Assembly: GCA_964346355.1 (NCBI GenBank)
Contig: CAYFUH010000004.1
Coordinates: 2,769 to 66,768, forward strand
Source of the DNA: an uncultured Christensenella sp.
Lineage (GTDB): Bacteria > Bacillota > Clostridia > Christensenellales > Aristaeellaceae
Reading direction: 5' to 3'
DNA: 64,000 nucleotides
Both the position numbers and the translations under genes were made by a program. The notes beneath the pieces are model-generated. The model worked only from the letters and a program-made list of their open reading frames with translations. It searched no databases and had not been told where the DNA came from. Of this stretch, positions 1-14,406 are shown one piece after another. The stretch's first letter is position 1; each line of letters begins with the position of its first letter.

Positions 1-2413
1 GCTGCAAACGGACTGCCTGCACCTTGACTGCCGGCAAACCATACGGCGCGATTCGCGGGCTGCCGTCCGCCTGTTTTTGTTCCTCCCATTGGGTAGCTTC
101 GTGGGTGAAGTAGGTGGGCATGATGCCCTCCCCCACCGCCAGCGCGCGGGTGATTCCCTCCGCAACCTGTTGTTCAAAACCCTGCAGGACAGATTTGATC
201 TGCGCATATGAGATTTCTGTCATCTTGCCGCTGACATGCGGGCAAATCTTCGCGCGGAAGGCTTCCCGCGCGTCCGCGCGCTGCTTCCAGGCCTGGAAAG
301 CGTCCTCTTCTTTGATCTGCGACAATGCCAGCATAAACGCTGCCAGTTCATCATTCAGCATCAGGCTGCCTGTCTCCGGGCAGACGGCTAAGAGCTTGCG
401 CAGGATGCGCTGCAGCTCAATGGTCTCAGGCATGCCGCTGCCCATCAGGCCAGGCAGGCCGTTCATGGCGTCACACCAGCCGGGCTTTCCGCCATCCATC
501 TCAATGCCCAGGCCGGAGGGATCCAGCAGCGCGACCTTGTTGACGGCCAGCGCCAGCAGCTTACCAAACAGCGTGGTGGTGACCGTCTTCCCCTGCGCGT
601 CCCTCAGCCAGTTGGTGCCGTTTGGGGTGAAGCCCGGGGCTTTTTCCTTCTGTTGGTCGTGCGCCAGCGCGCCATAGTGCCGCACCCCTTTTGGGGTGAT
701 GACTTGGGTATCCGCTCTGGGGCGGATATAAGCCGGGCTGTCGTAAAAACGGTAATCATCCCGGCCAAAGAACAGGTCCTCTTCTTGATCTGGATAGATG
801 GACAGATAGTCCTCAATCAAATCCAGGCAGTAATCAAAATGATCGCTCCAGTAGCCTTCGCCAAAGCCCGCCTCGATGCGCTGCACAGACAGGGCAAGCA
901 GGCCGTGGACAAGGGCTTTTAGGCTGCCCTTGATGGGCAAACGGTGGTCCAGGATGTAGGAACACAGCTGCCCCGGTGTGAAGGGGGACGCCAGCAGCGC
1001 GCGCAAGCCTTCATCCAGGTTTTGCAAATGCGTGTTAAGCAGGTCTTCCGCAGCCGCCTGTTGATCAGCAGGGATAATGAAGCTTGAGGGGCGGATTTCC
1101 AGCGGGTTGTAGCCATCCATCTGGATGAGGGACAGGAAGCTCCACACATTGAAATCCCCCACCTTGGGGTTTTGTGTGACATCATGCCGCCGGTTCTGGC
1201 AGACATCCCGGAAATTGCCGTTGCCCTGGGAGTAGAAGGTGCCCGCAGTGGTGAAGAAATTGTAGTCCCGCTCCGGGTCGCCATGCTTGCGGGAGAACAG
1301 GTGGATGATTTTGCGTGCGTCCCCTTCCCCGATAATGTGCGGATAGCCGCCGCGCAGGAAGTTATCCAGATAGGAGGACTGGATGTACTGGTCAAACAGG
1401 GGTCTGCCGGACTTGGTCCAAACATCCTTTGTGAAAACGTCCACAAGCTCCCGCGCAGCGCGCTCCTTCCGCTCAAAATAGTCCGGCTGGGCAAAAATGG
1501 GCAGCATATCCCGCAGCAAAGCGTCTGAGCCCGTAAAGCCCAGCAGGCTGCCAAAGCGCAGGGATTGGCCGGGCGCCAGTTCTGCCTTGAAAGGAGAAAA
1601 GCCGCAGGCGTATTTGTTGTAGAAAACCTGGTCTTGGTTCAATACGCCAGCCAGCCCTTCTTCCGCGAAAACCGTGGGCACCTGCAGGGAGGTCTCCTGG
1701 CCGAAGATGACGTCGGGATCAAAAATAACCTGTACCCGTTGGCCGTTATGCAGACCAAGGTAGTAATAGCCGCCGGTGATCTCCCCCACCTGGGCGGTGT
1801 CATCGGTGGTGGAACGCATGGAATAGATGGCGTAATGGTCCGCCATTCCCCTGACATCCGCCCAGCTTTTCATCAGGTTGGATACCGCTTTATACGCGTC
1901 CAGCTGCAGGCCATAAGGAAGCACACGCGGCAGGCCGTCCAGCGCCTCCAGGCTGATGGCTTGCCCGCTTAGGTTTTCAACCTGAACCTGCCGCGCCAGG
2001 GCACCGATGGGCTCCTCCGGCAGCACAAAATAGGTCACCCTTGTCTTGATGCCCAGGGTGTGGTTGATGTCCTCAATGCACAGCAGGTTGCGGTCAATCA
2101 CCATGCGCCGCGCGCTGTCAGACAGCGGGCTAAAGGGTTCATAAAACGTCCCCTTCACGCGTAAGAACGTGCGGAAACCCTTAAGCGCCACGTGTTCATA
2201 GGCGGTGTTGGCCGGGTTGAACTCCATGATGGCGTTGCCCTTGTGATGCACGCCCAGGCTGTGCACGCCCTGACCGCGGTTGCAGTAATACACCCACAGG
2301 GGAATGCCCTGCACACCAGCGATGCCGGGCAGGAAGCTGGAAAAAGTGGCCGCTTTGTCATAGTTTTCAATGACAAAGGAATCCCCCAAAAGGGCGTAGG
2401 TGGGCTTTTTCAT
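1..2413 (-). CDS. Large glycoside phosphorylase/hydrolase-like protein, N-terminal 804 aa only (gene runs off left edge); candidate beta-glucan phosphorylase
   Basis: Absent from the ORF track because it has no in-window stop. My translation from ATG 2413 (AAGGAG 9 nt upstream) stays open to nt 1: MKKPTYALLGDSFVIENYDKAATFSSFLPGIAGVQGIPLWVYYCNRGQGVHS...GGKPGWCDAMNGLPG. All listed minus ORFs here lie in another frame. Size and motifs recall the >1000-aa proteins annotated as cellobiose phosphorylase (GH94/GH149/GH161 type). The family call is from memory only. Confidence 0.6.
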   Translation of the reverse strand, partial: MKKPTYALLGDSFVIENYDKAATFSSFLPGIAGVQGIPLWVYYCNRGQGVHSLGVHHKGNAIMEFNPANTAYEHVALKGFRTFLRVKGTFYEPFSPLSDSARRMVIDRNLLCIEDINHTLGIKTRVTYFVLPEEPIGALARQVQVENLSGQAISLEALDGLPRVLPYGLQLDAYKAVSNLMKSWADVRGMADHYAIYSMRSTTDDTAQVGEITGGYYYLGLHNGQRVQVIFDPDVIFGQETSLQVPTVFAEEGLAGVLNQDQVFYNKYACGFSPFKAELAPGQSLRFGSLLGFTGSDALLRDMLPIFAQPDYFERKERAARELVDVFTKDVWTKSGRPLFDQYIQSSYLDNFLRGGYPHIIGEGDARKIIHLFSRKHGDPERDYNFFTTAGTFYSQGNGNFRDVCQNRRHDVTQNPKVGDFNVWSFLSLIQMDGYNPLEIRPSSFIIPADQQAAAEDLLNTHLQNLDEGLRALLASPFTPGQLCSYILDHRLPIKGSLKALVHGLLALSVQRIEAGFGEGYWSDHFDYCLDLIEDYLSIYPDQEEDLFFGRDDYRFYDSPAYIRPRADTQVITPKGVRHYGALAHDQQKEKAPGFTPNGTNWLRDAQGKTVTTTLFGKLLALAVNKVALLDPSGLGIEMDGGKPGWCDAMNGLPGLMGSGMPETIELQRILRKLLAVCPETGSLMLNDELAAFMLALSQIKEEDAFQAWKQRADAREAFRAKICPHVSGKMTEISYAQIKSVLQGFEQQVAEGITRALAVGEGIMPTYFTHEATQWEEQKQADGSPRIAPYGLPAVKVQAVRLQ

Positions 2414-2419
2414 GTAAGC

Positions 2420-3418
2420 TTACTCCTTGGTTTTCGCTTCAATCAGGGCATTGATTTGCGGGCTTTGGTATACGCGCACATAATCCACCAGCATCTGCTG
2501 GGGCAGCACGCCCTCATCAATCCCCCGGGCGCCGCCCCAGTTACCGCCAAAGGCGATGTTGAGCAGCAGATGATGGCGCTGGTCAAAGGGCCATTCCTTA
2601 TAGGTGGGTTGGGACACATACTGGGTGGGCTGGTAGGTGTAATAGATGGTGTCATCCACCGCAATCTGGATTTTATCCGGCAGCCAGATGAGCGTATAGG
2701 TATGGAAATCGTCACTGATATCAGGCACCTGGGTGGTCGCCGTTTTCTGTGTGCCTATGGAGTGGTGGAAGGTTTGTGTGTGAACGGAGGCATGCAATCT
2801 GCCCTGGTCATAGCCCACGTGCTCCATGATGTCAATCTCGCCGGAGGCGGGCCAGGAGCCATAGACCCAGTCCGTGGGCAGCATCCAGATGGCGGGCCAG
2901 GTGCCCAGCCCCCTCGGGATTTTGGCCCTGATCTCAAACTTGCCGTATAGCCAGTCGCCCTTGTTGCGGGTGACCAGGCGGGTGGAGGTATACTCCCGGT
3001 TGCCCTTGCTTTCCTTGCGGGCTTCAATGATAAGCAGGCCGTCTTTGACGTCCACGTTCTCGCCCCGGGTGTAATACTGCAGCTCGTTGTTGCCCCAGCC
3101 GTGGCCGCCTACGTCATAGTCCCATTTATCCGGGTTGGGCGCACCGTTTATATCAAACTCATCCGACCAGACCAGCTCATAGGTGAGCGCGTCCTCGTCA
3201 TACTCAAAACCGATGGCCTTGATGTGATCGGGGGAGATTTCTGCAATCGTATCCGGGTCTACATAGGCGCCGGAGACCTCTGTCCCTGTGCGCAGACTGC
3301 CTGGATCAAAACCGCCGTGTGTCATGGAGTCCTCCTCGTTGTCTTGGGTTTTTGCCGCCAGCGCGGAAATGTTTATGCAAAGCAAGATTGCCAAAATAAC
3401 TGTTAGGAATGAACGCAT
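2420..3418 (-). CDS. Secreted GH16 endo-beta-1,3(-1,4)-glucanase (laminarinase-like)
   Basis: ORF 2420..3484 trimmed to ATG 3418 (AAAGGAG RBS). Signal peptide MRSFLTVILAILLCINISALAA. GH16 catalytic motif EIDIME (SGEIDIMEHVG), plus WPAIWMLP and FGGNWGG. Confidence 0.9.
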   Translation of the reverse strand: MRSFLTVILAILLCINISALAAKTQDNEEDSMTHGGFDPGSLRTGTEVSGAYVDPDTIAEISPDHIKAIGFEYDEDALTYELVWSDEFDINGAPNPDKWDYDVGGHGWGNNELQYYTRGENVDVKDGLLIIEARKESKGNREYTSTRLVTRNKGDWLYGKFEIRAKIPRGLGTWPAIWMLPTDWVYGSWPASGEIDIMEHVGYDQGRLHASVHTQTFHHSIGTQKTATTQVPDISDDFHTYTLIWLPDKIQIAVDDTIYYTYQPTQYVSQPTYKEWPFDQRHHLLLNIAFGGNWGGARGIDEGVLPQQMLVDYVRVYQSPQINALIEAKTKE

Positions 3419-3428
3419 ACAAACTCCT

Positions 3429-4349
3429 TTATTCGCCGGTGATGCCGGTGTTTTCGATGCCCTGGATAAACTGTTTTTGCACAACCAGATACAAAAGGAT
3501 CAAGGGCAGGATGGAGATCAGGGTGGCCGCCATTTTGTACGCCTCGTTTAACCGGAAGGCGCTGCCGGCGGAGGAGACCAGGCTTTCAAACTGCTGGTCG
3601 AACAGGTTGAGTTTGGAAGGCAGCAATTCAATCGTGCCCGCAACCAGGGTGCCGGTGACATAGGTCTCGTTCCAGTTCCACACAAAGGAGAACAAGAAGA
3701 CCACCAGCACTGTGGTAAGCGACAGGCGCACCACCACATGGTAAAACACCTGAATCGGGCTGGCGCCGTCAATCATCGCGGCCTCGTCCAGCACGCGCGG
3801 AATCATGTTGAAGAAATTGTTGAAGATCAAAATCAACACGGTGGAATACACCCCCTGGCCCATCAGCGCCATGGCCACCTGGGGCAGCGCCGTGCCGATC
3901 ATCTTGATGCCGGTGGTCTCCTGGAAGGTGATGAACATCATCAGCCTGGGCACCATGAGGACAGGCAGGGGCACGATAAAGGCCAGCAAAATCATCATGA
4001 ACCAGAAGCGCTTGAACTTAAACTCGTACCGGGAGAGGGCGTAGCCGGTCAGCGCGGATACGATGGTCTGCGCCCCGGCTAAGAGGGCGGAAAACCAAAG
4101 GGAATTGACCAGGGATTTTTGCAAATTCAGCACCCGCGCCGCGATGCGCAGATTTTCTGTTGAGGAGGCGCGCGGCAGCCATTCCACCGCCGGGTCAATC
4201 ACGTCTGCCGCGCTCATGAAGGTTTTGGAGATGATGCGGAAGACCGGCTCCATATACACAAAACTGACGCAAATCAGGATAAAGTAGATAACCAGGTTGC
4301 CCGCTTTGTGGCCGCTGTCTTTAAACAATCTGGCTCTGAATTTTTTCAT
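3429..4349 (-). CDS. Carbohydrate ABC transporter permease (CUT1, MalG/LplC-like)
   Basis: ORF 3429..4607 trimmed to ATG 4349 (MKKFRARLF...), which forms an ATGA overlap with the upstream stop. Multi-TM protein with an EAA-type loop, LDEAAMIDGASPIQVFYHVVVRL. Confidence 0.88.
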   Translation of the reverse strand: MKKFRARLFKDSGHKAGNLVIYFILICVSFVYMEPVFRIISKTFMSAADVIDPAVEWLPRASSTENLRIAARVLNLQKSLVNSLWFSALLAGAQTIVSALTGYALSRYEFKFKRFWFMMILLAFIVPLPVLMVPRLMMFITFQETTGIKMIGTALPQVAMALMGQGVYSTVLILIFNNFFNMIPRVLDEAAMIDGASPIQVFYHVVVRLSLTTVLVVFLFSFVWNWNETYVTGTLVAGTIELLPSKLNLFDQQFESLVSSAGSAFRLNEAYKMAATLISILPLILLYLVVQKQFIQGIENTGITGE

Positions 4350-5242
4350 GGCAGCGGCACCTCCTTGTCCCTGGGCGCGCGGAAGATGAGGAAGGCGATA
4401 CCGATCATTAACAGGACCACCAGGCTGTAAATCCAGGCGTAGGTCGCGGCGTAGCCCAGGCCGTTGCTCATGTTGGCGGTCGCGGTGCGGATGAGCGTGT
4501 ACACCGTGTTGATGTTGTAGGTGGATAGCTGCGCAATGGCGAAGATGGCGCTGATGAGGGCGATGGGCCGAATCTGCGGCATGGTAATCTTCCATAAAAT
4601 CTGCCACTCATTGGCCGAGTCGATGCGCGCGGCTTCATACATGCTGGGGTTGATTTTTTGCATGCCGTTGATGAAGAGCACAATGGGGATGCCCGTAAAC
4701 CAGAGGATGGTGGACAGCTGCCGGAACACCCCCGAGAGCATGTTGGAAAAGGCCGGGGAATAGCTTTCCAGGATGTTGAACAAAAAGAGGTTGGTATACT
4801 CATCCGGCATCGCGACACCGTTGATGATCGTCTGGGAATCCAGAATCTGCCACATCACGGGGCCGGACATAATGATGACGGGCAAGAAGAAGATGGTGCG
4901 GAAGAAGGCCTTGCCCCGCTTGATGCGGTTGAGAAAATAGGCAACCACAAAGGAGACCACCACAATCATGAAGGTGTAGGGCACAATCATCATCACAAAT
5001 TCGCCCAAAGCGGGCACGAACTCCACGTTCTTGAAAAAGGCGGTGATGTAGTTTTCCCAGCCAGTGAAGGTGATCTCATACCCCCTTATGGTGGAGTTGA
5101 CGGAGGTAAAGCTAAGCCCAATCGTCGCCACGAAGGGAAAGAGGGTAAAGAGGAGAAAACCAATGATCCAGGGCGCCATGAACAGATAGCCCATCCGGTT
5201 TTGGCGGCGGGCGAAGGCTGCGTCCTTTTTGCGGTTCTTCAC
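4346..5242 (-). CDS. Carbohydrate ABC transporter permease (CUT1, MalF/LplB-like)
   Basis: 298 aa. GTG start overlaps the stop of the upstream gene (GTGA), with AAGGAGG upstream. Six predicted TM segments and EAA loop YEAARIDSANEWQILWKITMPQIRP. Confidence 0.88.
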   Translation of the reverse strand: MKNRKKDAAFARRQNRMGYLFMAPWIIGFLLFTLFPFVATIGLSFTSVNSTIRGYEITFTGWENYITAFFKNVEFVPALGEFVMMIVPYTFMIVVVSFVVAYFLNRIKRGKAFFRTIFFLPVIIMSGPVMWQILDSQTIINGVAMPDEYTNLFLFNILESYSPAFSNMLSGVFRQLSTILWFTGIPIVLFINGMQKINPSMYEAARIDSANEWQILWKITMPQIRPIALISAIFAIAQLSTYNINTVYTLIRTATANMSNGLGYAATYAWIYSLVVLLMIGIAFLIFRAPRDKEVPLP

Positions 5243-7620
5243 TCACTCACCTCCTTGATGACCACAGCGGACTGCGGCGGGATTTTCTGGTTTTCAAACT
5301 GCTGGGTTTGCGGGGTGTAGTTGATGACAATGCGCGCGGTGTCGGTATCCCTTTTATACTCGTTCACCACAACGCCGCTGGCCGGCACCTTGCGCGCAAG
5401 CCACTCAAAGCCCTGCACCTGTGACAAGGCGCCGTTGACCTGCTTGTAAATCCGGGTGATGAGGTCACGATACTGCTCAAACTCGGTGGAATAAAGCCCC
5501 GAAGACAGCGTTTCTGACAGCAGGTGCGCCGGCTGCTTGGACAGGATAAAAGCGGGGCTTATGTTGTAGTCGATCATGCGCAGGATATCCTCCTGCGTGT
5601 AGAAGGAGAAATTGCTGTAAGGCCCGTACACCTCCATGGTGCCGTGCAGCACCATTTGCAAAAAGGGCACCTCATCCGTCTCAAACACATATTGGGATCC
5701 CCCCGCCGGCGCCTGCAAAAAGCGCGTGGTAGCCTGCCATAAATAGACGTTAGGTGCCTCCAGATTCAGGCGCAGCGTGTCAGAAAGCGCCTGCATGACC
5801 TCGCGGTAGGCTGTCATGGACTGGCCCAGGGTGAGGGTAACGCCCTGGCGGTCGTAGCTGGACAGCAACTGGTTGCTGATGCCGGCGATGGTGAGTGACT
5901 GGGAAAAAGGCGCGGCGCGGCGGGCGATCTCCCTGAGCCAATCAGCGGCGATGGTGGGCAGCGCGAAGGCAAAATCGGTAACCGGCGCTGCCGGGAACAA
6001 ATCCTCCCGGTTGTTGCTGTTGTACCAGGTGTTGATATGCTTGGCTGCCGTGCCCAGGTAGGACGTCATGCGCGGGTTGATGGTGGCGTATTCCCGGGCC
6101 AGGCTGATGTCAATGCCTTGGGCCGCGTAGTGTTCAAACAGCTCTTTGAAATCCTGCTCCCGTCCGATGCCGCGGTGAAAGCGCCAGCTGTCCGGCCGCG
6201 CCAGCGTTTCAGCGCCCGCCTGCCAGCCGATGAGTCCGGCATTGATATTGGTGATGCCCAGGCCCATCACCTCGTCCAAGATCTCCCTGACATCCCCCAC
6301 CGTGGTGGTAACCACCTGCTCATGCCCGATGAGGCTTTTTTTCATGTCCGACAGGATAAAGTCCAGCCGCAGGGGCAGATCCCCTTCCTGTTTGGAACGC
6401 TTGTTGAGCACGCCTTTTTGAATCAGATGGCTGCGGTAAGCCTGGGCCATGCCGCTGTAATCAGCGCTGGGGCTGCCGTCGCTGCCATCACCATGCAGGA
6501 ACAGATAGGTCATCTTCACATCGTACTGGAAGAGGTCCTCCGCCTTTGTGAAGTAGCCGCTGCCCTTTCTGTTGTAGACCTTGTAATACTCCACGTTGTA
6601 CTCAAAGCGCGGGTAACAGAAATTGTACTTGAGGCGCAGGTTTTCCTCCGGCCGCATGATGATGTCCAGGTACTCCGCACCCTGCTCGGCATAGGCTAAA
6701 AAGGCAGCCTGCTGGTTGCCGTGGGCGATGCCAAAGACGGGCATGGTGGGGTTTTTGGTAGCCAGGGCGTCCGACTCACGGGTGCTGAAATAGGTCTGGG
6801 TAGACAGATCCGGGCCAAAGACATCGCCGATGTACTCCATAAAGGGCACCGTGTTGTCCTGGAAGCGAATCAGCGTGCCGGAGCCGTCGGGCACCAGGGC
6901 ATAGCCCGGCACGGCATACTTGGCGCGGGTATCGCCATACTCGCCGGTAGCAGGGTCATAAAACTCCGCCTCGCCGCCGCTGGCACCCAAAAAGGGCGTA
7001 ATCCACAGCGCGGTGAAGACGCTTTTGCCGCTGCCGGTGATGTCCGCGATGGGTACTTCATACTGCAGGCCTTTCTCAAGCAGGGTGACATAGACCTTGA
7101 TCTGAAGGTCGATCTCTTTGAAGTCTACCGCCAGCACAAATTGGTTATCCGTGCCGGGCACAGCTTCTAGCTGGCTGTCCACATTTTTTTCCGCGGCGCT
7201 GCCCAGGTAGAAGATCTTGCCGTCGCGGTACTCGATGGTGATGAGGGAATTGGCCACGCCGATGTAGGTGGCGTTCATACTTTTTTCAATGGGCTCTGCC
7301 GCGATCAGCTTTTCCTCATCTGTTTTGGCCTGCTTGAGTGCATCCTTAATCTGCTTGGAAAAGCCAATGTCCGCGCCTGTTTTCCATACATAGCCGTTGG
7401 CCTTGTCCAAGACGGCCAGGATGTCCCTGTCCTCCCGCCAGTAATAAACAGCGCTGTTTGTTTCATATAGTAGCGTGTAGGCGTCCAAATTGGGCTGCTC
7501 CATCTTCACCAGCGCAGGCGCGGGCTTGGTGTCACGCTGGGTGGGCACATACACCTCTTCCATGCCTGCATCAGAAAAAAGCAAGAGGAGCAGGAGCAAA
7601 AATACAATCATTTTACGCAT
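5239..7620 (-). CDS. Secreted or membrane-anchored 793-aa protein of unknown function (possibly the family annotated DUF5696)
   Basis: ORF 5239..7644 trimmed to ATG 7620. N-terminal hydrophobic anchor MRKMIVFLLLLLLLF. I could recognise no catalytic motif. The C-terminal half contains LDFILSDM...GWQAGAE...VPFLQMVLHGTMEVYGP. The 8-nt overlap with the upstream gene and the GTGA overlap downstream argue for real, coupled translation. Confidence 0.7.
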   Translation of the reverse strand: MRKMIVFLLLLLLLFSDAGMEEVYVPTQRDTKPAPALVKMEQPNLDAYTLLYETNSAVYYWREDRDILAVLDKANGYVWKTGADIGFSKQIKDALKQAKTDEEKLIAAEPIEKSMNATYIGVANSLITIEYRDGKIFYLGSAAEKNVDSQLEAVPGTDNQFVLAVDFKEIDLQIKVYVTLLEKGLQYEVPIADITGSGKSVFTALWITPFLGASGGEAEFYDPATGEYGDTRAKYAVPGYALVPDGSGTLIRFQDNTVPFMEYIGDVFGPDLSTQTYFSTRESDALATKNPTMPVFGIAHGNQQAAFLAYAEQGAEYLDIIMRPEENLRLKYNFCYPRFEYNVEYYKVYNRKGSGYFTKAEDLFQYDVKMTYLFLHGDGSDGSPSADYSGMAQAYRSHLIQKGVLNKRSKQEGDLPLRLDFILSDMKKSLIGHEQVVTTTVGDVREILDEVMGLGITNINAGLIGWQAGAETLARPDSWRFHRGIGREQDFKELFEHYAAQGIDISLAREYATINPRMTSYLGTAAKHINTWYNSNNREDLFPAAPVTDFAFALPTIAADWLREIARRAAPFSQSLTIAGISNQLLSSYDRQGVTLTLGQSMTAYREVMQALSDTLRLNLEAPNVYLWQATTRFLQAPAGGSQYVFETDEVPFLQMVLHGTMEVYGPYSNFSFYTQEDILRMIDYNISPAFILSKQPAHLLSETLSSGLYSTEFEQYRDLITRIYKQVNGALSQVQGFEWLARKVPASGVVVNEYKRDTDTARIVINYTPQTQQFENQKIPPQSAVVIKEVSE

Positions 7621-9634
7621 AGATATTGCGAAGCACCTCCTCATAGATGGTGCGCAGGAACTCCAGCAGCTGCTCGCCCATAATCAGCACAATCAGCACG
7701 ATGATGACCGCGATGATCATGAAAACCAGGGTGAGCACAAAGCAGCGGATGGTTTCCCGGAAAGTGTAGTCATGCACATTCTGCAGGGCCAAAAACAGCG
7801 TGATCAGCGTCCAGACAACCCCGGCTAACAGGATAATGGACAGGATGAAGGACTCGCTGTAGGTGAGCGTGTAACTCAGCCCCAAAATGAGCAGGAAAGC
7901 GCCCATCACCGGCATGAGTGAATAGGCGGGGATCATGTAGCACTGCTTTAAATCCCCGTCCCCGTCGTTGATGGAGGTGACCAGGTAGTTGCACAGGATG
8001 AACAGGCCGATGAACAGGAAATAGCCCGTCACCAGGGCGGTGATGTCCATGTCCTCCACCTGCACAAACTGGTAGATGAAGCCCTTGCTGGTTTGGTAGA
8101 GCATGAAAATTACGAAATACAGACCGTAGAGGATGGTGGCGCCCAGGACGCTGCCCTCGCGCTTCCTGCGCACCTCATAAAAGGCATCCACGGGATGGCG
8201 CGGTGTGACAAAGGCAAAGAGGACATCCTTGATGACAGGCGTTTTTCGCAGTGCGCGCCAGCCGCGGCTGGTGAGGCTGCGCATGCCGCGCTTTTTATAG
8301 TACCGCTTGAGGAAGAAGTTGATGAGAACCAGGGCCACTGCGCCCATCGCAAACGGCGGCAGCCAGCGCTGGATAAAGGTGTTGCGCAGCTCCCAGAAAG
8401 CCTCTGAATACATGGCGCGGTTGCCCGCCACGCGGAAGTGGCCGATGGACGCCTCATAGTCTTCGTTATGGAAGTGCGCCTTGGCGATTCCGTTGTGCGC
8501 CAATACAGACATCTGGTTGAGCCTGAGCACCCGGTTCCATTGGCGCAGCGATGCCTGGTACTCCCCTTTTTCATACAGGCCCATCGCGTCATAGACCGTG
8601 TTGGCGTAATCCGTGGGCACAAAGGACTGCACATAGCCCTTCTCGCTGTCCAGCGCCCAGATGATGCCCTGTTTGTCCACCGCCAAAGCGGGCAAGCGGG
8701 AAAACAGGCCCGCCACATCCAGGTTGGAAACATTGGAGCCGAAGTTGAAGATCAATTCCCCGGCGGGCGAATAAATCAGGATGTAGCCGGACTGGTCAGC
8801 GGCATAGATGATGCCGCGCGCGTCCACCCAGACATCGCTTAAGGCTTCGGTGCTGATGACCCGGTCGATGAACATGTTGGCGCCGTCCGTCCGGTGCTTT
8901 TTAAGGGCATTGTAGCGGATGGACATGGTGGTGGTATAGGTGATCCCGGCCGGGTCCACAAACACGTTGGAGAAGGTGATGGGCACGCTGTCCACCAGGT
9001 TGGCCAATTGCTCGCGCGTGAAGATCAGGCGCTGCAGGGCTTGGGAGAAGGTGAGCCGCGTCTGGTTGACGGTGAAATAGCCCAGGAACTCCCCCGCTTT
9101 GCCCAACTGGATGACGCCGTGGTAGACGCCCTCCCCCACCAAATAGAGGTTGCCGCCCGCGTCCACCGCAACCTTCATGGGCTCATAACGGATGTCCGAA
9201 AAGACGGGTGAGGCGGGTTTTTCATACGCGCGGATCAGGGTCTGCGCGGCATCAAACTGGAACACCTTGCGCGCGCCCGGGTCCGCCACATACAGCTGTC
9301 CCTCCCTGGTGACATAGATGCCGGTAGGGCTTGAAAAACCAGGATAGGCCAGCTCGTTTTTTATCTGGCCGCGGGCAGTGTCGTACAGCAGCACGCGCTT
9401 GTTGCCGCTGTCGGCGATGTACAGGGTGCCCGCTTCATCAATAAACAGGTCCGCGGGCTTATTAAGCCCCAGCGTGGTGATGGTTTTGTCCGGCAAATAG
9501 GCGTCCTGCGTGCGCACAAAGCGGTATTTCTGATCCAGCGTGTAGGTGTAGCTGGTGGCTTTGTTGGCATAAGCGGTGAGCGGCAAAAAGAGACTTGCCA
9601 GCAACAGGAGAATGATGCGTGTCCGTGTTCTCAT
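7613..9634 (-). CDS. NHL-repeat beta-propeller / TPR / Yip1-domain integral membrane protein
   Basis: ORF 7613..9643 trimmed to ATG 9634 (GAGGTG RBS). Signal peptide MRTRTRIILLLLASLFLPLTAYA. NHL-like repeats include LYIADSGNKRVLLYD, LYVADPGARKVFQFD, IIYAADQSGYILIYS and IIWALDSEKGYVQSF. A TPR-like stretch (GLYEKGEYQASLRQWNRVLRL) is followed by a multi-TM Yip1-like C-terminus. Confidence 0.75.
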   Translation of the reverse strand: MRTRTRIILLLLASLFLPLTAYANKATSYTYTLDQKYRFVRTQDAYLPDKTITTLGLNKPADLFIDEAGTLYIADSGNKRVLLYDTARGQIKNELAYPGFSSPTGIYVTREGQLYVADPGARKVFQFDAAQTLIRAYEKPASPVFSDIRYEPMKVAVDAGGNLYLVGEGVYHGVIQLGKAGEFLGYFTVNQTRLTFSQALQRLIFTREQLANLVDSVPITFSNVFVDPAGITYTTTMSIRYNALKKHRTDGANMFIDRVISTEALSDVWVDARGIIYAADQSGYILIYSPAGELIFNFGSNVSNLDVAGLFSRLPALAVDKQGIIWALDSEKGYVQSFVPTDYANTVYDAMGLYEKGEYQASLRQWNRVLRLNQMSVLAHNGIAKAHFHNEDYEASIGHFRVAGNRAMYSEAFWELRNTFIQRWLPPFAMGAVALVLINFFLKRYYKKRGMRSLTSRGWRALRKTPVIKDVLFAFVTPRHPVDAFYEVRRKREGSVLGATILYGLYFVIFMLYQTSKGFIYQFVQVEDMDITALVTGYFLFIGLFILCNYLVTSINDGDGDLKQCYMIPAYSLMPVMGAFLLILGLSYTLTYSESFILSIILLAGVVWTLITLFLALQNVHDYTFRETIRCFVLTLVFMIIAVIIVLIVLIMGEQLLEFLRTIYEEVLRNIYA

Positions 9635-9644
9635 GCCCGCCACC

Positions 9645-10541
9645 TCACTTGATGCCTGAGTGGCTCATCGTGTTCATGACCTGGGACTGCATGAAGATGA
9701 AAATGATGAGGTTGGGCAAAAAGAGGATGAGGGAAGCAGCAGCCGTCATGCCGGCGGCGGACACCGTGTTGTTGGTGGAGATGGCGTTTAAGTAAAAGGC
9801 CAGCGTGCGCAGGGCGTCATCGGTGATGAAGTTGTTGGAGGCCTCCACCGTGCCCCACACCAACTGGAAGGACAGCACTGCAGCTGTTGCAAGTGCTGGC
9901 CGTGTCAGCGGGATGATGACCCGGCGGATGATGGTTACATCCCCCGCACCGTCTATCACCGCGGCCTCTATCAAAGCATCCGGGATTTGATCCGTAAACT
10001 GTTTGATTAAAAACAGGACGACCGGCATCGCCACCAGGGGGAGAATATGCGCGAACAAGGTGTTGAGCATGCCGGAGTTGACGATGACGATATAGCGCGG
10101 CACCGCCACCGCGGTGGGCACAAACATCAGGGCCAGCTGGTTGATGGAGAACAGGCGCTCCTTGAGGCGGAAACGCTTCTTGGACAAAGCGTAAGCCCCG
10201 GTCACGGAGATGGCCAGGTTGAGGAGCACCGTCAAAATGGTAATCACCACGGAGTTGAGCAAATAGCGCGACATGGGGACCCCTGTGGTGGAGGACAAGC
10301 GAAACAGCGCGCGGAAATTATTGAGGGTGAACTCGCTGGCGAAGATACGCGGCGGGAAGGCGTGCAACTCACCCAGGGGCATGAAAGCGCGGTTGACAAT
10401 CATCAACACAGGAATCACCATGAAGGCCGCCAGCGGCAGCAGCACCAGGTAAAACTTGATCTGGCTGGCGGAAAAACGGCTGGGGTTGATGCGGGAGCCG
10501 GAGTAGGCGTTGCGACGGCGCCTTTTGGCGGGCTGACTCAT
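9645..10541 (-). CDS. Carbohydrate ABC transporter permease (MalG/LplC-like)
   Basis: 298 aa. ATGA overlap with the upstream stop, GGAGGAG RBS. EAA loop [26 protein letters not shown]. Six TM segments. Confidence 0.88.
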
Positions 10542-11473
10542 ACGATCTCCTCCTTCTCGCCAAAGAAGCGGTAGGCCAGTTTGTTAAACAGATAGACAAC
10601 CAACAGCAGCACAACCGACAGCGCCGCGGCGTAGCCCATCTCATAGCGGATGAAGCCATAGTCATCGATGTGGTTGGTGATCAACTGCCCCGCGTACTGC
10701 GGTGTGGGGTTTGCGCCCGCCAAGGTGACACCAATCCAGCCCATGTTGAAGGCGTTGACAATGGCCATGACCGCGCCAAAGAGCATCTGCGGCTTCATGG
10801 ACGGAATGGTGATATAGATAATCTCCTGAAAACGGTTGCGCAGCCCGTCCACATAGGCGGCCTCGTACAGTTCTTCATTGACATTCAAGATGCCTGAGAT
10901 CATCGCCAAAAAGCCGATTCCCATCGCCGACCACAGGGACACGATGATCATGATCAGCATGAAATAATCCTGGGTCAAAAGGAACTGGATGGGTTGGTCC
11001 GTGAGGCCCAGTTCCATGAGCAGGAAGTTGGCGATGCCAGCCTGATCGCCCGAGAAAATGGCACGCCAGACCACGCCGATGAATACGCTGCCCAGCATGG
11101 AGGGCGTGTAGATGCACAGCGCCAGGATGGTGCGCGGCACGCGCTGCAACTGGGTGAGCATCCACGCCACCAAAAAGGAGAGGACATAGCCGCCCGGACC
11201 TACCACCAGGGCGTATAAAAAGGTGTTGGGCAGGACGTTTTTGAGGAAGACCGTATCCTGGGTGAAGATGGACACGTAGTTGAGCAGCCCTGTAAACACC
11301 GGGCGGTTGATCACATCAAAGAAGGTAAAGCTGAGCACAATGGCCACCACCACAGGCACCAGGATAAACATGGTGAAGGGAATGGCATAGGGCAAAAGCA
11401 GCAGGCCCGCGCGCAGGCCTTCACGCTTTTTTCGCGGCTTTGGTTTTTTGCCGGATACGCTGACGCTGCTCAT
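10538..11473 (-). CDS. Carbohydrate ABC transporter permease (MalF/LplB-like)
   Basis: 311 aa. ATGA overlap with the upstream stop. EAA loop [27 protein letters not shown]. Multi-TM. Confidence 0.88.
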
Positions 11474-14406
11474 CTCATCCCTCCTTCCGACAGATCCATC
11501 TGCTCCTTGATCCAGTCATAATCCCGGATCACATAGGGCTTAAGCAAACGGCCGTCCTGGTCATAAAAGCCCAGCTCCGTCATCTTCTTTCTGATTTCGC
11601 GGTTGATTAAGACCACCTTCTCGTCCACCGCTACCTGGGCGGATACGCCCTTTGTGACCATGGCGTTCCAGATGTCGGAGATGGAGCGCTCTAGGATGTA
11701 CTGCCCGGGCGTGCGCGGGACATCCCGCAGCCAAGGGGTGCTGTCCAAAATAATGTCCAAATCCGCCCGGTCTATCGGCGCGTCTTTTAAGGCCTCCACG
11801 TTGGAAGGCAGCCACATGAAGGCATCGCCATAGGTAGAGCGCAGCAGGAAGGTGTAGTTGACCTGCGTTTCCTTGGACAGCCACCACTTGAGGAAGGCCC
11901 AAGCCTGATCCTTCATCTGCGTGTCCTTAAACACAATGCCGCCCTGACCGTTGGCAATAAACCAGCGGGAGACGCTTCCGTCCTCCTGCACGGTGCCGGG
12001 GTAGGGCGCCATAGCCCACTGGCCTTCCAATTCCGGCGCGCCGTTTTTCAGCAAGATATAGGTGCCCGAGTCCAGGATGCCCACAGGCTGCACCGCGTAC
12101 CGGAAGGCGTCAAAGAAGCTGGATACCTGGATGTCCAGGGAATAGGCGATGAACAGGTTGCCCAGCGCCTGGATGCCGGCGATGGCCTCCGGCTGGTGGA
12201 TGGCGGTGCGGTAGCCATCCGGAGTGTATAATGTGCCGCCGTGCTGGAAGATGAGCGGCGTTGTCTGATAAAACCACTTGTAGCCCGTGCCCTGGGCGAT
12301 GTTGTGGAAGAAGTTCATTCCGTAGCGCTGCAGTTCCGGCAAAAGGGCTGTCACCTCATCCCAGGTCGCGGGCACCTGCATGCCAAAGTTTTCAAAGATG
12401 TCGCGGCGGTAGACCAGGCAGGCAAAATCCAGCGTCTCCGGAATGGCATACACACCCTCGTTGAATAAATAAGGAACAAAGGTGCCCGGCGGCATCTGCC
12501 CTGCCACCTGCCAGAAATCCGAGAACTGGCTTAAATCAAGCAGTGCGCCGCGGGAAGCCAGATCAAAAGGCATGTGGGATGCCAAGCCCAGCGCCACATC
12601 CGGCGTGGTGTTAGCGGAAGCCGACATGGTGAGTTTGCCGGGGTCGGTGAGCGCGGACAGCTTCACCTTGATGCCTGTTTTTGCGGTGAACTCGGTATCC
12701 ACCATCTTTTGCAGCAAATCCACATGTGTGAGCGCGCGGTTCACCCAGACGGTCAGCACCTCGCCATCGCCCGCGGTCTGGCGGTATTTGTCGGTGGTAA
12801 AGGTGTGGTAAAGGGTGGAAAACCAGTTGCCCAGGCTGCGCAGCGCGCTCGCGCCGGACTGGGGCACCTCGCCCTCCCCCGTCACATACACCATGTCCAG
12901 GGAGAAGGCGTCGTTGGTGAGCTGCGTCGCAAAGCGGCTGAGGGAGACGATGATGGAGTTGTCCGGCCCGGTCATCTGCTGGGTGTACAGGGAAATCTCA
13001 TCCGGGTAGCGCTTCATGGCTTCAATCAAACCAAGCGCCTTATCGATCTCCGCAAACATCGCGCTGCCTGTGCCGCGCTCGCTATAGTCCTGGGTGAGTG
13101 TCTTGATGTGGTTGAGAAGGACGTCATAGGCATCCAGGTAATCGGCGATGTGCGGCAAATAGCGCGTCATCTTCCAGGTGCGGTTTTTATCTCGCTGGGA
13201 GCCCGCCAATTCGGTCACCTGCAAAGAAAAGCGCATCACATGGGCGGATACCAGCCGGGCATAGCGCCATGCCTGCATGACCGGCGCCATCTCCATGCGC
13301 AGGCTGAGGGTGTGCGTGCCCGCCTCCAGATAAAACAAGAAAGGCGCGCCATCTTTGCCGTGCAGCGTCTCCATCGCCCAGTTCCCGTTGGTGACGGGGA
13401 AGGAATAGCTTCCGCACTCTAAAAAGGGCAGGCTGCCATCAATCAGGATGCTGTGGAAGGCGGCGAACTCCGGCTTGTCGTTGCGGTAGTGGAGGGCAAT
13501 TTGATATAAGCCTGCTGTTTTGACCTCAAAGGAATAGGTGACCTGCGTCCCGTCCTTGCCCCAGGACAGGGCGTTAAGCAATTTTTTGCTGCTGTCATGC
13601 GGGGTGAGCGCCGGGTTGTTGACGCTTTCAAAGATGGCTTCCGCGTTGTTCTTTTCCAGATAACGCACCGCGTTAAGGGCAATTGTGCCTTCCCCCATCA
13701 TCTGGTGCTGATGCTGCGCTTGATAGGCTGCGTAATCAGGCAGGGTGCCCTCAGGCGCCATGGCGCGCAGCGCGCCCAGCATCAGGCCATCGCCGGAGCG
13801 GTTGGTGAGGGTGATGAGGTTGTCACCTGAGGGCAGGTAAAACAGCAGCGGCTGGGCAGTAGAGCGCAGCTTGCTGTTGAGGGGCTGGCTGCGCCAGCGA
13901 TCCACCCTGGATTGACGCGGGGCGGATTCATCCCCATAGCTGTCCTTGGGGAAATCCTCCTGCGCGCTTTGCCAGTAAAGGGGCAGGGCGAGGCTGTCCA
14001 TCTCCGCATAATCCTGAACATCATTGACCTTGATGGACAGGATGAAGTCCGACATGGTGCTGAGAGTGGGCAAATAGTCAAGGCTGAGGGTGTACAGCCC
14101 GGCTGTTTCCACCGCCAGACGGTAGGTAGCCGTTTGCTGGTAGTTGAGCAAAATGGTGTCCCGGTCCGCCGTGCCATCAAGGGGCAGCGCGCGCGCATCC
14201 CCAGTCCCTGGGGGCACATCCAGACCTGACAGGAAATCCAGATAGGGCGTTTGCTCACCGGTCATCTCACCCGCCAGCAGCTGCCAGGCTTTGGTAACCT
14301 CCTGCTCGTCGCTGGCCTGCACACGCAGCCCCTGTTTTGGGGGCAAAAAAATGAGGGCAAGCAGAATGACTCCGACCACGACCCAGGCTCCCCATTTTTT
14401 GATCAT
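11470..14406 (-). CDS. Giant (978 aa) membrane-anchored extracellular solute-binding protein with a duplicated N-terminal beta-sandwich-like module
   Basis: ATG 14406 with GAGGGA RBS. N-terminal TM helix [17 protein letters not shown]. Two related segments ([22 protein letters not shown] / [23 protein letters not shown]). The C-terminal ~430 aa look like a family-1 SBP ([11 protein letters not shown]..., [19 protein letters not shown]). Confidence 0.8.

What the first reader, a model, noticed from the sequence alone, without database searches (positions are those of the whole stretch)
7613..9634. Extracellular NHL propeller + TPR fused to a Yip1 membrane domain, embedded in a sugar ABC operon
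The predicted topology starts with a signal peptide, then about 330 aa with at least five NHL-like blades (for example LYIADSGNKRVLLYD, LYVADPGARKVFQFD, IIWALDSEKGYVQSF). A TPR-like pair follows (GLYEKGEYQASLRQWNRVLRL...). Next come a TM helix and a basic cytoplasmic loop (KRYYKKRGMRSLTSRGWRALRK), then a five-TM Yip1-like domain. Bacterial Yip1-domain proteins have no established function, and pairing one with an outward-facing propeller inside an importer operon is not a described architecture as far as I know. The gene is bracketed by an 8-nt overlap downstream and a 10-nt gap upstream, so stoichiometric co-expression with the permeases is likely.
Basis: partly seen in the sequence, partly recalled or inferred. 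Interest (0 to 1): 0.6.

Follow-up and report, generated by a model that had tools for sequence, protein, structure and literature searches.

The report
Propeller–Yip1 subunit of glycan importer
A membrane protein with an outward-facing six-bladed propeller joined to a Yip1-type membrane domain is real, and it is a fixed but never-studied part of a widespread Gram-positive sugar-uptake gene cassette, which here serves beta-1,3-glucan uptake.

Summary
Window 7613-9634 (minus strand) encodes a 673-aa protein. It has a cleavable signal peptide, a six-bladed NHL propeller, a short TPR-like stalk, one TM helix, a basic cytoplasmic loop and a five-TM Yip1 domain. The 10-nt upstream gap and the 8-nt downstream overlap are as described.

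The fusion is not a local oddity. More than 1,400 protein clusters share it. In 80 of 80 related genome loci it sits in the same order: SBP, giant SBP, permease pair, this gene, DUF5696, permease pair, then mostly GH16 and GH161.

In 39 DUF5696 loci sampled across the phylum, the gene just upstream always carries NHL/TPR plus Yip1. It is fused in 30 loci, one of them only weakly matched. It is split right after TM1 in 9. The same genome holds a split paralogue in a xylan-type locus.

DUF5696 models as a GH129-like glycosidase fold.

Best reading, inferred and not shown: a substrate-independent accessory or scaffold subunit of a CUT1 ABC glycan importer, comparable to the Yip1 protein YknW of the YknWXYZ exporter. 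I found no paper that describes it.

The parts
7613..9634 (-). Whole gene: NHL propeller, TPR-like stalk, TM1 and Yip1 membrane protein, 673 aa
   Evidence: ORF and translation. Pfam Yip1, NHL and TPR hits. More than 1,400 full-length homologue clusters.
9560..9634 (-). Signal peptide, aa 1-25 (MRTRTRIILLLLASLFLPLTAYA|NK)
   Evidence: Hydrophobic segment at aa 5-25 with a basic n-region and an AxA site. A23 is invariant and A26 at least 90% conserved in 33 homologues, just before the conserved ATSYTYT motif.
8615..9556 (-). Extracytoplasmic six-bladed NHL beta-propeller, aa about 27-340, with a conserved low-confidence helical insert at aa 190-218
   Evidence: Pfam NHL. PknD 1rwi at E=1.7e-20. 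AF2 strands form six blades. Foldseek matches NHL domains with target TM-score 0.76-0.82.
8384..8611 (-). TPR-like helical stalk, aa 342-417
   Evidence: TPR_16 and TPR_11 hits are below cut-off. Consensus-TPR PDB chains match at E=8e-5. Five helices in the model. W366, Y409, S410 and R417 are at least 90% conserved across 40 diverse cassettes.
8300..8365 (-). TM1, aa 424-445. It crosses from outside to inside and is the last element of the NHL/TPR protein in split versions.
   Evidence: Hydropathy. All nine split loci and the paralogue on contig C10 end the first protein just after this helix.
8147..8299 (-). Basic cytoplasmic loop, aa 446-496, with 14 K/R. It contains the fusion/split junction and the conserved HPxDxF motif.
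   Evidence: Charge count. Break points of split forms; P481 and F485 conserved.
7673..8146 (-). Yip1 five-TM bundle, aa 497-654 (TM2-TM6)
   Evidence: Pfam PF04893 covers aa 479-644. Five hydrophobic segments. G518, F519, N549, G558, G560, P575, E594 and H621 are conserved over 40 cassettes.
7616..7672 (-). C-terminal amphipathic helix, aa 655-673, predicted outside. F659, E666 and R670 are conserved.
   Evidence: AF2 shows one long helix at aa 625-672. Conservation.
5239..7620 (-). Obligate partner gene: DUF5696 protein, 793 aa, with an N-terminal hydrophobic anchor and a GH129-like fold
   Evidence: PF18952 at E=2.7e-132. AF2 pTM 0.85. Foldseek top hits are GH129 5opq at E=8e-25 and NagBb. 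It lies directly downstream in 74 of 74 loci.
3429..5242 (-). Downstream permease pair: permC 4346-5242 and permD 3429-4349
   Evidence: BPD_transp_1 hits. Start of permD. A permease pair follows DUF5696 at every locus with enough flank, except one locus cut by its contig end and one divergent locus.
9645..11473 (-). Upstream permease pair: permA 10538-11473 and permB 9645-10541
   Evidence: BPD_transp_1 hits; UgpA/UgpE- and MalG-like. Upstream in 71-73 of the close loci. Absent from some distant half-cassettes.
11470..14406 (-). Giant TM-anchored solute-binding protein, 978 aa
   Evidence: SBP_bac_1 covers aa 563-848. N-terminal hydrophobic helix. Present in 61 of 62 loci.
14473..16116 (-). 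Second solute-binding-type protein, 547 aa, first gene of the operon
   Evidence: Signal peptide MFTTRKILSLLLALCLGLG. Conserved at the head of the locus. No Pfam hit.
1..3418 (-). Substrate-defining enzymes: secreted GH16 (2420-3418) and cytoplasmic GH161 beta-1,3-glucan phosphorylase (starts at 2413 and runs off the window)
   Evidence: GH16 Pfam hit. The 1,061-aa protein matches the GH161 phosphorylase PDB 9qqk at E=1e-246.

Best explanation
The protein is a substrate-independent accessory (scaffold or adaptor) subunit of a multi-component CUT1-type ABC glycan importer.

**Proposed mechanism.** After signal-peptide cleavage, the six-bladed NHL propeller and the TPR-like stalk stand outside the membrane, held by TM1. 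The five-TM Yip1 bundle lies in the membrane beside the transporter. I propose that the Yip1 bundle packs against the transmembrane domains of the adjacent permease pair, as the Yip1 protein YknW does with YknXYZ. I also propose that the propeller and stalk form a docking platform. This platform would hold the membrane-anchored GH129-like DUF5696 protein, and possibly the tethered giant binding protein, over the translocation pore.

**In this locus.** The assembly would take up beta-1,3-gluco-oligosaccharides released by the secreted GH16. The cytoplasmic GH161 phosphorylase would then degrade them.

**Shown.** Domains, topology, operon position, strict co-occurrence with DUF5696 and a permease pair, alternation of fused and split forms, and use of the cassette with different enzyme sets.

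**Inferred.** Physical contacts, the docking role, and any effect on transport.
For: 1. **Topology.** It places about 400 aa outside and a Yip1 bundle in the membrane, with no cytoplasmic output domain.
2. **Synteny among close relatives (47-95% identity).** DUF5696 lies directly downstream in 74 of 74 loci. A permease lies directly upstream in 73 of 73. The second permease pair follows in 70-73 of 70-73.
3. **Sampling across the phylum.** In all 39 DUF5696 loci fetched from 401 evenly sampled genomes, the gene immediately upstream carries NHL/TPR plus Yip1. One of these is a weak, divergent match. A permease pair follows directly, except at one locus cut by its contig end and at the divergent one.
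4. **Rosetta-stone pattern.** At 30 of the 39 loci both parts lie in one ORF; 29 are confident matches and one (L152) is weak. At 9 loci the gene is split. The break always falls just after TM1, in the basic cytoplasmic loop. This genome itself holds a split paralogue on contig C10: a 507-aa NHL/TPR/TM protein, then a 227-aa Yip1 protein overlapping it by 4 nt. All eight cassette genes there stand in the same order.
5. **Substrate independence.** The C10 copy sits beside GH5, GH10 and GH67 (xylan type). The window copy sits beside GH16 and GH161 (beta-1,3-glucan).
6. **Coupling.** A 10-nt gap upstream and an 8-nt overlap downstream.
7. **Precedent.** YknW, a Yip1-family protein, modulates assembly of an ABC transporter (PMC4887032, PMC4338810). 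Yip1 genes recur with ABC gene sets in bacteriocin clusters (PMC10707071).
8. **Conserved residues.** Polar and glycine residues in the Yip1 part persist across 40 cassettes at 25-55% identity: N549, G558, G560, E594, H621, E666 and R670.
Against: - No direct evidence of protein-protein contact.
- Conserved gene order shows functional linkage, not the nature of the link.
- Residues conserved in the propeller are mostly the structural NHL-blade motif (D75, R80, D118, D158, D329). No partner-binding surface could be identified.
- YknW serves a MacB-type exporter, not a type I importer, so the analogy is loose.
- In one lineage, seen on 19 contigs, the gene appears broken into three ORFs in different frames while the rest of the cassette is intact. 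If this is real, the protein is dispensable there.
Confidence: 0.5

Rival explanations
1. Surface glycan-binding protein. The NHL propeller is a lectin that captures the polysaccharide or long oligosaccharides at the membrane and hands them to the binding proteins. The Yip1 part is merely its anchor. This can coexist with the scaffold reading.
For: The propeller faces outward. There is a weak, sub-threshold Pfam Tachylectin match (26.7 bits against a 29.8 cut-off) at aa 220-354. The closest solved bacterial relative by sequence is the extracellular sensor propeller of PknD. The two paralogues in this genome, which serve different glycans, share only 28% identity in the propeller.
Against: All cassette components diverge to a similar degree between the two paralogues, 22-40%, so the divergence is not specific to the propeller. 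A single TM helix would suffice as an anchor, yet the Yip1 bundle is retained as a separate gene even in split forms. No sugar-binding motif was identified.
Confidence: 0.2
2. Assembly factor only. The protein acts transiently as a membrane chaperone that helps the two permease pairs or the anchored ectoproteins to insert and oligomerise. It is not a stoichiometric part of the working transporter.
For: YknW is described as affecting the oligomeric state and assembly of its partners (PMC4338810; PMC4887032). Eukaryotic Yip1 proteins act in membrane trafficking and organisation (PMC6682643, listed).
Against: Overlapping or abutting reading frames suggest expression in step with the structural subunits. 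A 400-aa conserved ectodomain is large for a chaperone of membrane helices.
Confidence: 0.12
3. Sensor or gate. The propeller senses extracellular substrate, as the PknD sensor domain is thought to do. The Yip1 domain then relays this to the transporter or to a regulator and switches uptake on.
For: Homology of the propeller to the PknD sensor domain. Conserved polar residues within the membrane part (N549, H621) could relay a conformational signal.
Against: There is no kinase, HTH, GGDEF or other output domain. The only cytoplasmic element is a loop of about 50 aa. No regulator gene is conserved in the cassette.
Confidence: 0.08
4. Enzyme. The propeller is a catalytic SMP-30/gluconolactonase-type or lyase-type domain acting on the glycan or on a sugar lactone, as the database name 'sugar lactone lactonase YvrE' suggests.
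For: Pfam SGL match at 33.5 bits against a 26.3 cut-off. Some sources name homologues 'sugar lactone lactonase YvrE'.
Against: The SGL match covers only aa 68-142, which is profile positions 145-225 of 246. That is two blades and reflects generic blade similarity. The best sequence and fold matches are non-catalytic NHL domains. The residues conserved across cassettes fit the structural NHL motif rather than a metal-binding site. This last point was not tested rigorously.
Confidence: 0.05

Closest known systems
YknW of the Bacillus subtilis YknWXYZ four-component ABC transporter (Yamada et al. 2012, as cited in PMC4887032 and PMC4338810)
   Same: It is a Yip1-family polytopic membrane protein encoded in an ABC transporter operon. 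It acts as an accessory subunit that modulates assembly of the complex.
   Different: YknW is small and has no ectodomain. Its partner is a MacB-type exporter with a membrane-fusion protein that protects against SDP toxin. Here the partner is a type I CUT1 sugar importer, and the Yip1 domain is fused or paired with a 400-aa NHL/TPR ectodomain. Direct sequence similarity to YknW was not measured.
Extracellular NHL sensor domain of Mycobacterium tuberculosis PknD (PDB 1rwi)
   Same: It is an extracytoplasmic six-bladed NHL propeller tethered to the membrane by one TM helix. It is the best natural sequence match in the PDB, at E=1.7e-20.
   Different: PknD couples the propeller to a cytoplasmic Ser/Thr kinase. 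Here there is no kinase, only a Yip1 bundle. There is also an extra TPR-like stalk and a conserved helical insert between blades 3 and 4.
CUT1-family ABC sugar importers of Gram-positive polysaccharide-utilisation loci (MalEFGK2 or MsmEFGK type, with a shared orphan ATPase)
   Same: MalF/MalG- and UgpA/UgpE-like permeases and SBP_bac_1 binding proteins. No ATPase lies in the locus; two MalK-type candidates lie elsewhere in the genome. The locus is flanked by a secreted endo-glycanase and a cytoplasmic phosphorylase.
   Different: Known systems have one permease pair and one SBP of about 420-550 aa. They have no Yip1, NHL or DUF5696 components. This cassette has two permease pairs, two binding proteins (one of 978 aa and TM-anchored) and two extra membrane-anchored proteins.
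Eukaryotic Yip1/YIPF proteins (PF04893; review PMC6682643)
   Same: The Pfam family and the five-TM core with a cytoplasmic N-terminal segment are the same.
   Different: The eukaryotic proteins act in ER-Golgi trafficking with Rab GTPases. None of that machinery exists here, and there is no ectodomain fusion in eukaryotes.
Sus-like systems of Bacteroidota (SusCD with surface glycan-binding proteins and a surface glycosidase); functional analogy only
   Same: A conserved transport core is combined with surface-exposed binding or enzyme-like proteins and reused with different CAZyme sets for different glycans.
   Different: There is no homology. That system is diderm, TonB-dependent and in the outer membrane. 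This one is monoderm, ABC-driven and in the cytoplasmic membrane.

Membership tests
Yip1 domain family (Pfam PF04893) | Match to the family profile above the curated cut-off, over most of its length | tested here: met
   49.8 bits against a cut-off of 28.6. Protein aa 479-644 match profile positions 5-171 of 173. The genome-level search gives 52.3 bits.
Yip1 domain family (Pfam PF04893) | Five transmembrane helices preceded by a cytoplasmic segment | tested here: met
   Five hydrophobic segments at aa 497-654 follow a loop with 14 K/R. The AF2 model shows matching helices. This is prediction only, with no experimental topology.
YknW-type ABC accessory subunit | Physical association with, and modulation of, an ABC transporter complex | not testable with these tools
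   Only genomic linkage is shown. It needs co-purification or a structure.
NHL-repeat beta-propeller (Pfam PF01436) | NHL repeat profile matches above the cut-off | tested here: met
   42.8 bits against a cut-off of 20. PknD 1rwi at E=1.7e-20; Pizza designs at E=1e-49.
NHL-repeat beta-propeller (Pfam PF01436) | Closed six-bladed propeller fold | tested here: met
   The AF2 model has six groups of four strands at aa 30-340. Foldseek matches Thin, TRIM71, TRIM2, Brat and Pizza6 at E=1e-15 to 1e-12, target TM-score 0.76-0.82.
Tetratricopeptide repeat (TPR) | Profile match above the cut-off, with paired antiparallel helices | tested here: inconclusive
   TPR_16 scores 27.1 against 32.7, TPR_11 24.8 against 26.8, and TPR_2 18.4 against 27. 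Consensus-TPR PDB chains match at E=8e-5. There are five helices at aa 342-417. It is TPR-like, about 2.5 repeats.
SMP-30/gluconolactonase/LRE-like (PF08450), 'sugar lactone lactonase YvrE' | Full-length match including the metal-binding catalytic site | tested here: not met
   The match covers only aa 68-142, which is profile positions 145-225 of 246. Catalytic residues were not examined individually.
CUT1 ABC importer (TC 3.A.1.1) core component | Being a permease (BPD_transp_1), a solute-binding protein or an ATPase | tested here: not met
   The protein has none of these domains. It is an additional component encoded between two permease pairs.
Conserved NHL/TPR/Yip1-DUF5696-permease cassette (undescribed; defined here and in earlier scan notes) | NHL/TPR plus Yip1, fused or split, immediately upstream of a DUF5696 gene that is followed by two BPD_transp_1 permeases | tested here: met
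   Window genes. 74 of 74 close loci. 39 of 39 DUF5696 loci sampled across the phylum carry NHL/TPR plus Yip1 upstream, one of them a weak match. A permease pair follows directly in all but one truncated and one divergent locus.

The most novel reading that the evidence does not exclude
The NHL-TPR-Yip1 protein is the organising hub of a previously unrecognised multi-subunit glycan-uptake machine of monoderm bacteria. The machine would comprise one or two CUT1 permease pairs, an ordinary binding protein, a giant membrane-tethered binding protein and a GH129-like ectoprotein. It would be a functional counterpart of the Bacteroidota Sus apparatus, reused with different enzyme sets for different polysaccharides. 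It would also give the first defined role for a prokaryotic Yip1 domain in nutrient import.
Probability: 0.35. Interest if true: 0.8.

Novelty: new variant of a known kind. Interest (0 to 1): 0.62.

Why it matters
Gram-positive gut and digester bacteria (Lachnospiraceae, Christensenellales, Eubacterium, Acetatifactor) are major fibre degraders. Their glycan uptake is currently modelled as a simple system of binding protein, two permeases and an ATPase.

This protein marks a conserved cassette with at least two extra membrane-anchored components, and nobody has assigned them a function. The DUF5696 marker occurs at E below 1e-100 in 33 of the 400 other genomes sampled evenly across the phylum, often in several copies. 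The cassette is combined with different enzyme sets.

If the propeller-Yip1 protein is a structural subunit, the model of oligosaccharide import in monoderm bacteria needs extending. Prokaryotic Yip1 domains would then have a general role as ABC-transporter accessory modules.

The alternation of fused and split forms gives a clean genetic handle for testing this. Several cultivable carriers exist: Anaerotaenia torta DSM 100431, Eubacterium album LFL-14, Eubacterium segne BX4 and Acetatifactor muris.

Tried and rejected
- **DUF5696 profile against the PDB.** A profile of 19 DUF5696 sequences found no PDB sequence match at E up to 10. Only the fold comparison revealed the GH129/GH101 relation.
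- **Word-indexed search with the Yip1 part.** It gave 26 hits, mostly gene fragments on short contigs. Two apparently stand-alone cases were not clean splits. P0136 in L081 and L082 is one of three consecutive ORFs in different frames, so the gene is broken there. P0127 in L083 is a TPR plus Yip1 remnant behind a 198-aa ORF. True split forms came only from sampling DUF5696 loci and from the window's own genome.
- **Literature.** 'DUF5696' gave 0 papers. 'NHL repeat' with ABC transporter, glycoside hydrolase and Firmicutes gave 0. The Yip1 searches returned only eukaryotic YIPF work, YknW and bacteriocin clusters.
- **Lactonase reading.** The name given by some databases was rejected because the SGL match is partial.
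- **Foldseek on the whole model.** The propeller dominated the results, so nothing was learned about the Yip1 bundle.
- **Not attempted.** Mirror-tree or co-evolution analysis, because all cassette genes share one phylogeny. Multimer prediction, because it is not available here.
Full report
**Gene and junctions.** The finding sits on the minus strand. The ORF 7613-9643 starts with GTG, but the ATG at 9634 is the likely start. It lies behind GAGGTGG and aligns with the start of the homologues. This gives a 673-aa protein. The upstream permease ends at 9645-9647, a 10-nt gap. The next gene's ATG at 7620 overlaps the TAA stop by 8 nt (ATGCGTAA).

**Domains.** Pfam gives Yip1 (PF04893) at 49.8 bits against a cut-off of 28.6, over profile positions 5-171 of 173. 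NHL scores 42.8 bits against 20. There is a partial SGL match, and the TPR matches fall just below their cut-offs. By sequence, the N-terminal part matches the extracellular NHL sensor propeller of PknD (1rwi, E=1.7e-20). It also matches the Pizza designs derived from such propellers.

**Structure model.** An AlphaFold2 model was built on 33 homologues, with mean pLDDT 78. It shows:
- six four-stranded blades at aa 30-340;
- a low-confidence helical insert at aa 190-218;
- five stacked helices at aa 342-417;
- one long TM helix, short cytoplasmic helices, and a five-helix membrane bundle.

Foldseek against the PDB returns six-bladed NHL domains (Thin, TRIM71, TRIM2, Brat, Pizza6) at E=1e-15 to 1e-12, target TM-score 0.76-0.82.

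**Topology.** Hydropathy finds a signal peptide (AYA|NK) and six TM segments. The loop at aa 446-496 holds 14 K/R, which puts it in the cytoplasm and the propeller outside. TPR is the only soft call.

**Surroundings.** The locus is a ten-gene minus-strand operon:
1. a 547-aa binding-type protein with no Pfam match;
2. a 978-aa TM-anchored SBP;
3. two permeases;
4. this gene;
5. a 793-aa DUF5696 protein (PF18952, E=2.7e-132);
6. two more permeases;
7. a secreted GH16;
8. a 1,061-aa cytoplasmic protein that runs off the window.

The last protein matches the solved GH161 phosphorylase 9qqk at E=1e-246. GH161 enzymes are beta-1,3-glucan phosphorylases, and they have been noted next to GH16 and ABC permease genes before (PMC6484121). 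So the substrate is beta-1,3-glucan. No ATPase lies in the locus. Two MalK-type candidates lie elsewhere in the genome.

**Abundance of the fusion.** The large protein collection holds more than 1,431 clusters (at 90% identity) of full-length homologues with the same domain set. Where they are named at all, the names are 'YIP1 family protein', 'DUF1282 family protein', 'tetratricopeptide repeat protein' or 'sugar lactone lactonase YvrE'. An exhaustive HMMER search with the Yip1 part alone finds 786 representatives (at 50% identity) at E of 1e-10 or better. Of the best 150, 97 are full-length fusions of 640 aa or more and 21 are of Yip1-only size.

**Synteny in close relatives.** I fetched 80 genome loci with relatives at 47-95% identity. 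They come from Christensenellales, Lachnospiraceae, Acetatifactor, Eubacterium, Herbinix, Anaerotaenia and Oscillospiraceae. Counts below include only loci with enough flank.

| Neighbour | Loci |
|---|---|
| DUF5696 directly downstream | 74 of 74 |
| permB directly upstream | 73 of 73 |
| permA upstream | 71 of 71 |
| giant SBP | 61 of 62 |
| permC downstream | 73 of 73 |
| permD downstream | 70 of 70 |
| GH16 | 62 of 67 |
| GH161 | 53 of 63 |

**Second copy in the same genome.** Earlier notes of this scan said that the same cassette recurs widely, sometimes with NHL/TPR and Yip1 as separate genes, and that DUF5696 has a GH129-like fold. I treated these as leads and tested them. The window's own genome has a second DUF5696 gene and a second Yip1 gene, adjacent on contig C10.

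That locus repeats the whole order: giant SBP, two permeases, a 507-aa NHL/TPR protein ending in one TM helix, a 227-aa Yip1 protein overlapping it by 4 nt, DUF5696, and two permeases. Each product is the best match of its counterpart in the window at 22-40% identity. Window aa 14-422 align to the 507-aa protein. Window aa 451-672 align to the Yip1 protein. This copy is flanked by an ordinary SBP, GH5, GH10 with CBM4_9, and GH67. That is a glucuronoxylan-type enzyme set.

**Sampling across the phylum.** I searched 401 genomes drawn evenly from the phylum, the window's own among them, for DUF5696. Strong matches (E below 1e-100) occur in 33 of the 400 other genomes, with up to three copies each. 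I fetched 39 of these loci. In every one, the gene immediately upstream of DUF5696 carries NHL/TPR plus Yip1. At one locus (L152) the match is weak and divergent.
- A permease pair follows DUF5696 directly, except at one locus cut by its contig end (L131) and at L152.
- At 30 loci both parts lie in one ORF of 635-835 aa: 29 confident fusions of 670-835 aa, plus L152.
- 9 are split. The first protein always ends just after TM1, and the second starts in the cytoplasmic segment.
- About half the loci carry the upstream set of giant SBP and a permease pair.
- In the rest, an ordinary or giant SBP follows the downstream permease pair.

The invariant core is therefore NHL/TPR/Yip1, DUF5696, one permease pair and a binding protein.

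**Conservation across 40 cassettes.** Positions at least 90% conserved include the structural NHL motif residues. They also include W366, Y409, S410 and R417 in the stalk, and P481 and F485 in the cytoplasmic segment. In the Yip1 part they are G518, F519, N549, G558, G560, P575, E594, H621, F659, E666 and R670.

**The partner protein.** A sequence profile of DUF5696 finds nothing in the PDB. Its AlphaFold2 model has pLDDT 80 and pTM 0.85. By fold it matches GH129 enzymes: ZgGH129 5opq at E=8e-25 with target TM-score 0.68-0.70, and NagBb. GH101, GH36, GH31 and GH97 follow. These are alpha-retaining glycosidases, which is odd in a beta-glucan locus. I leave that unexplained.

**Mechanism.** The evidence shows an outward-facing propeller on a stalk, tied to a Yip1 membrane bundle. 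The protein has no cytoplasmic output domain. It is always encoded with DUF5696 and a permease pair. It occurs fused or split at one fixed point. It is used with different enzyme sets.

The most economical reading is a substrate-independent accessory or scaffold subunit of the importer. The Yip1 bundle would pack against the permeases, and the propeller and stalk would dock DUF5696 and perhaps the tethered SBP. There is a precedent: YknW, a Yip1-family protein, modulates assembly of the YknXYZ ABC transporter (PMC4887032, PMC4338810). Yip1 genes also accompany ABC gene sets in bacteriocin clusters (PMC10707071).

The contacts themselves are inferred. The rivals are a lectin role for the propeller, an assembly-only role, a sensor role and an enzymatic role. 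They are listed with their tests. The lectin role can coexist with the scaffold role.

**Novelty.** Searches of the paper library found no paper on DUF5696 and none on an NHL/Yip1 protein in sugar uptake. The protein family itself is abundant in databases, and earlier notes of this scan have met the cassette many times. I rate it a new variant of a known kind: an ABC importer with undescribed accessory subunits. Interest is moderate to high.

**Missing evidence.** There is no multimer model and no experimental topology.

Noticed in passing
outside the window: genome contig C10:22158-33618 (minus strand), loci L085 and L086: A second, paralogous cassette lies in the same genome. NHL/TPR (507 aa) and Yip1 (227 aa) are separate overlapping genes there. 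It is flanked by an ordinary SBP, GH5, GH10 with CBM4_9 and GH67, with a GH65-like gene upstream. This looks like a xylan-type locus.
   Followed up: yes
L081:8247-10259 and L082:257-796: In one lineage, seen on 19 contigs, the NHL-TPR-Yip1 gene is called as three consecutive ORFs (245, 202 and 179 aa) in frames 0, 1 and 0. This implies two frameshifts, while the rest of the cassette looks intact. It could be a pseudogene, a recoding site or a recurrent assembly error.
   Followed up: partly
window 5239-7620 (-): DUF5696 models as a GH129/GH101/GH36-like fold, the class of alpha-retaining glycosidases. Yet it sits in a beta-1,3-glucan locus here and in a xylan-type locus on C10. Many acidic residues are invariant among close homologues, for example D245, E316, D420, D425, E647, D649 and D684. 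What it does is unexplained.
   Followed up: partly
window 14473-16116 (-): The first gene of the operon encodes a 547-aa secreted protein, conserved at the head of the locus in most relatives. It has no Pfam match even at E up to 1. In distant cassettes an ordinary SBP_bac_1 protein of about 430-490 aa holds the equivalent place.
   Followed up: partly
window 1-2413 (-), continuing to genome C4:1996: The 1,061-aa GH161 beta-1,3-glucan phosphorylase has no Pfam model. It is identified only through the recent PDB entries 9qqk, 9sr2 and 9h8v, at E=1e-246.
   Followed up: yes
loci L121-L124, L128, L129, L131-L135, L137, L142, L143, L145, L149, L153, L155: These are 'half cassettes'. They hold NHL-TPR-Yip1, DUF5696, one permease pair and a binding protein, with no giant SBP or permease pair detected upstream. 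Where several kb of upstream sequence were held (5-7 kb at most loci), none was found there. A few loci end at a contig edge, so their upstream side is unchecked. So the extra components go with the downstream permease pair.
   Followed up: partly
window 16400-18169 (+): A single 589-aa ORF combines Dak2, the FakA middle domain and a full DegV domain. This is a FakA-FakB-like fusion. A DUF1295 membrane enzyme gene follows and overlaps it.
   Followed up: no
L020, L022, L026, L028, L030, L032, L033, L057, L068, L072: In 10 of 63 close relatives with enough flank, no GH161 gene lies within about 13 kb downstream of the cassette. The enzyme complement varies even among close relatives.
   Followed up: no
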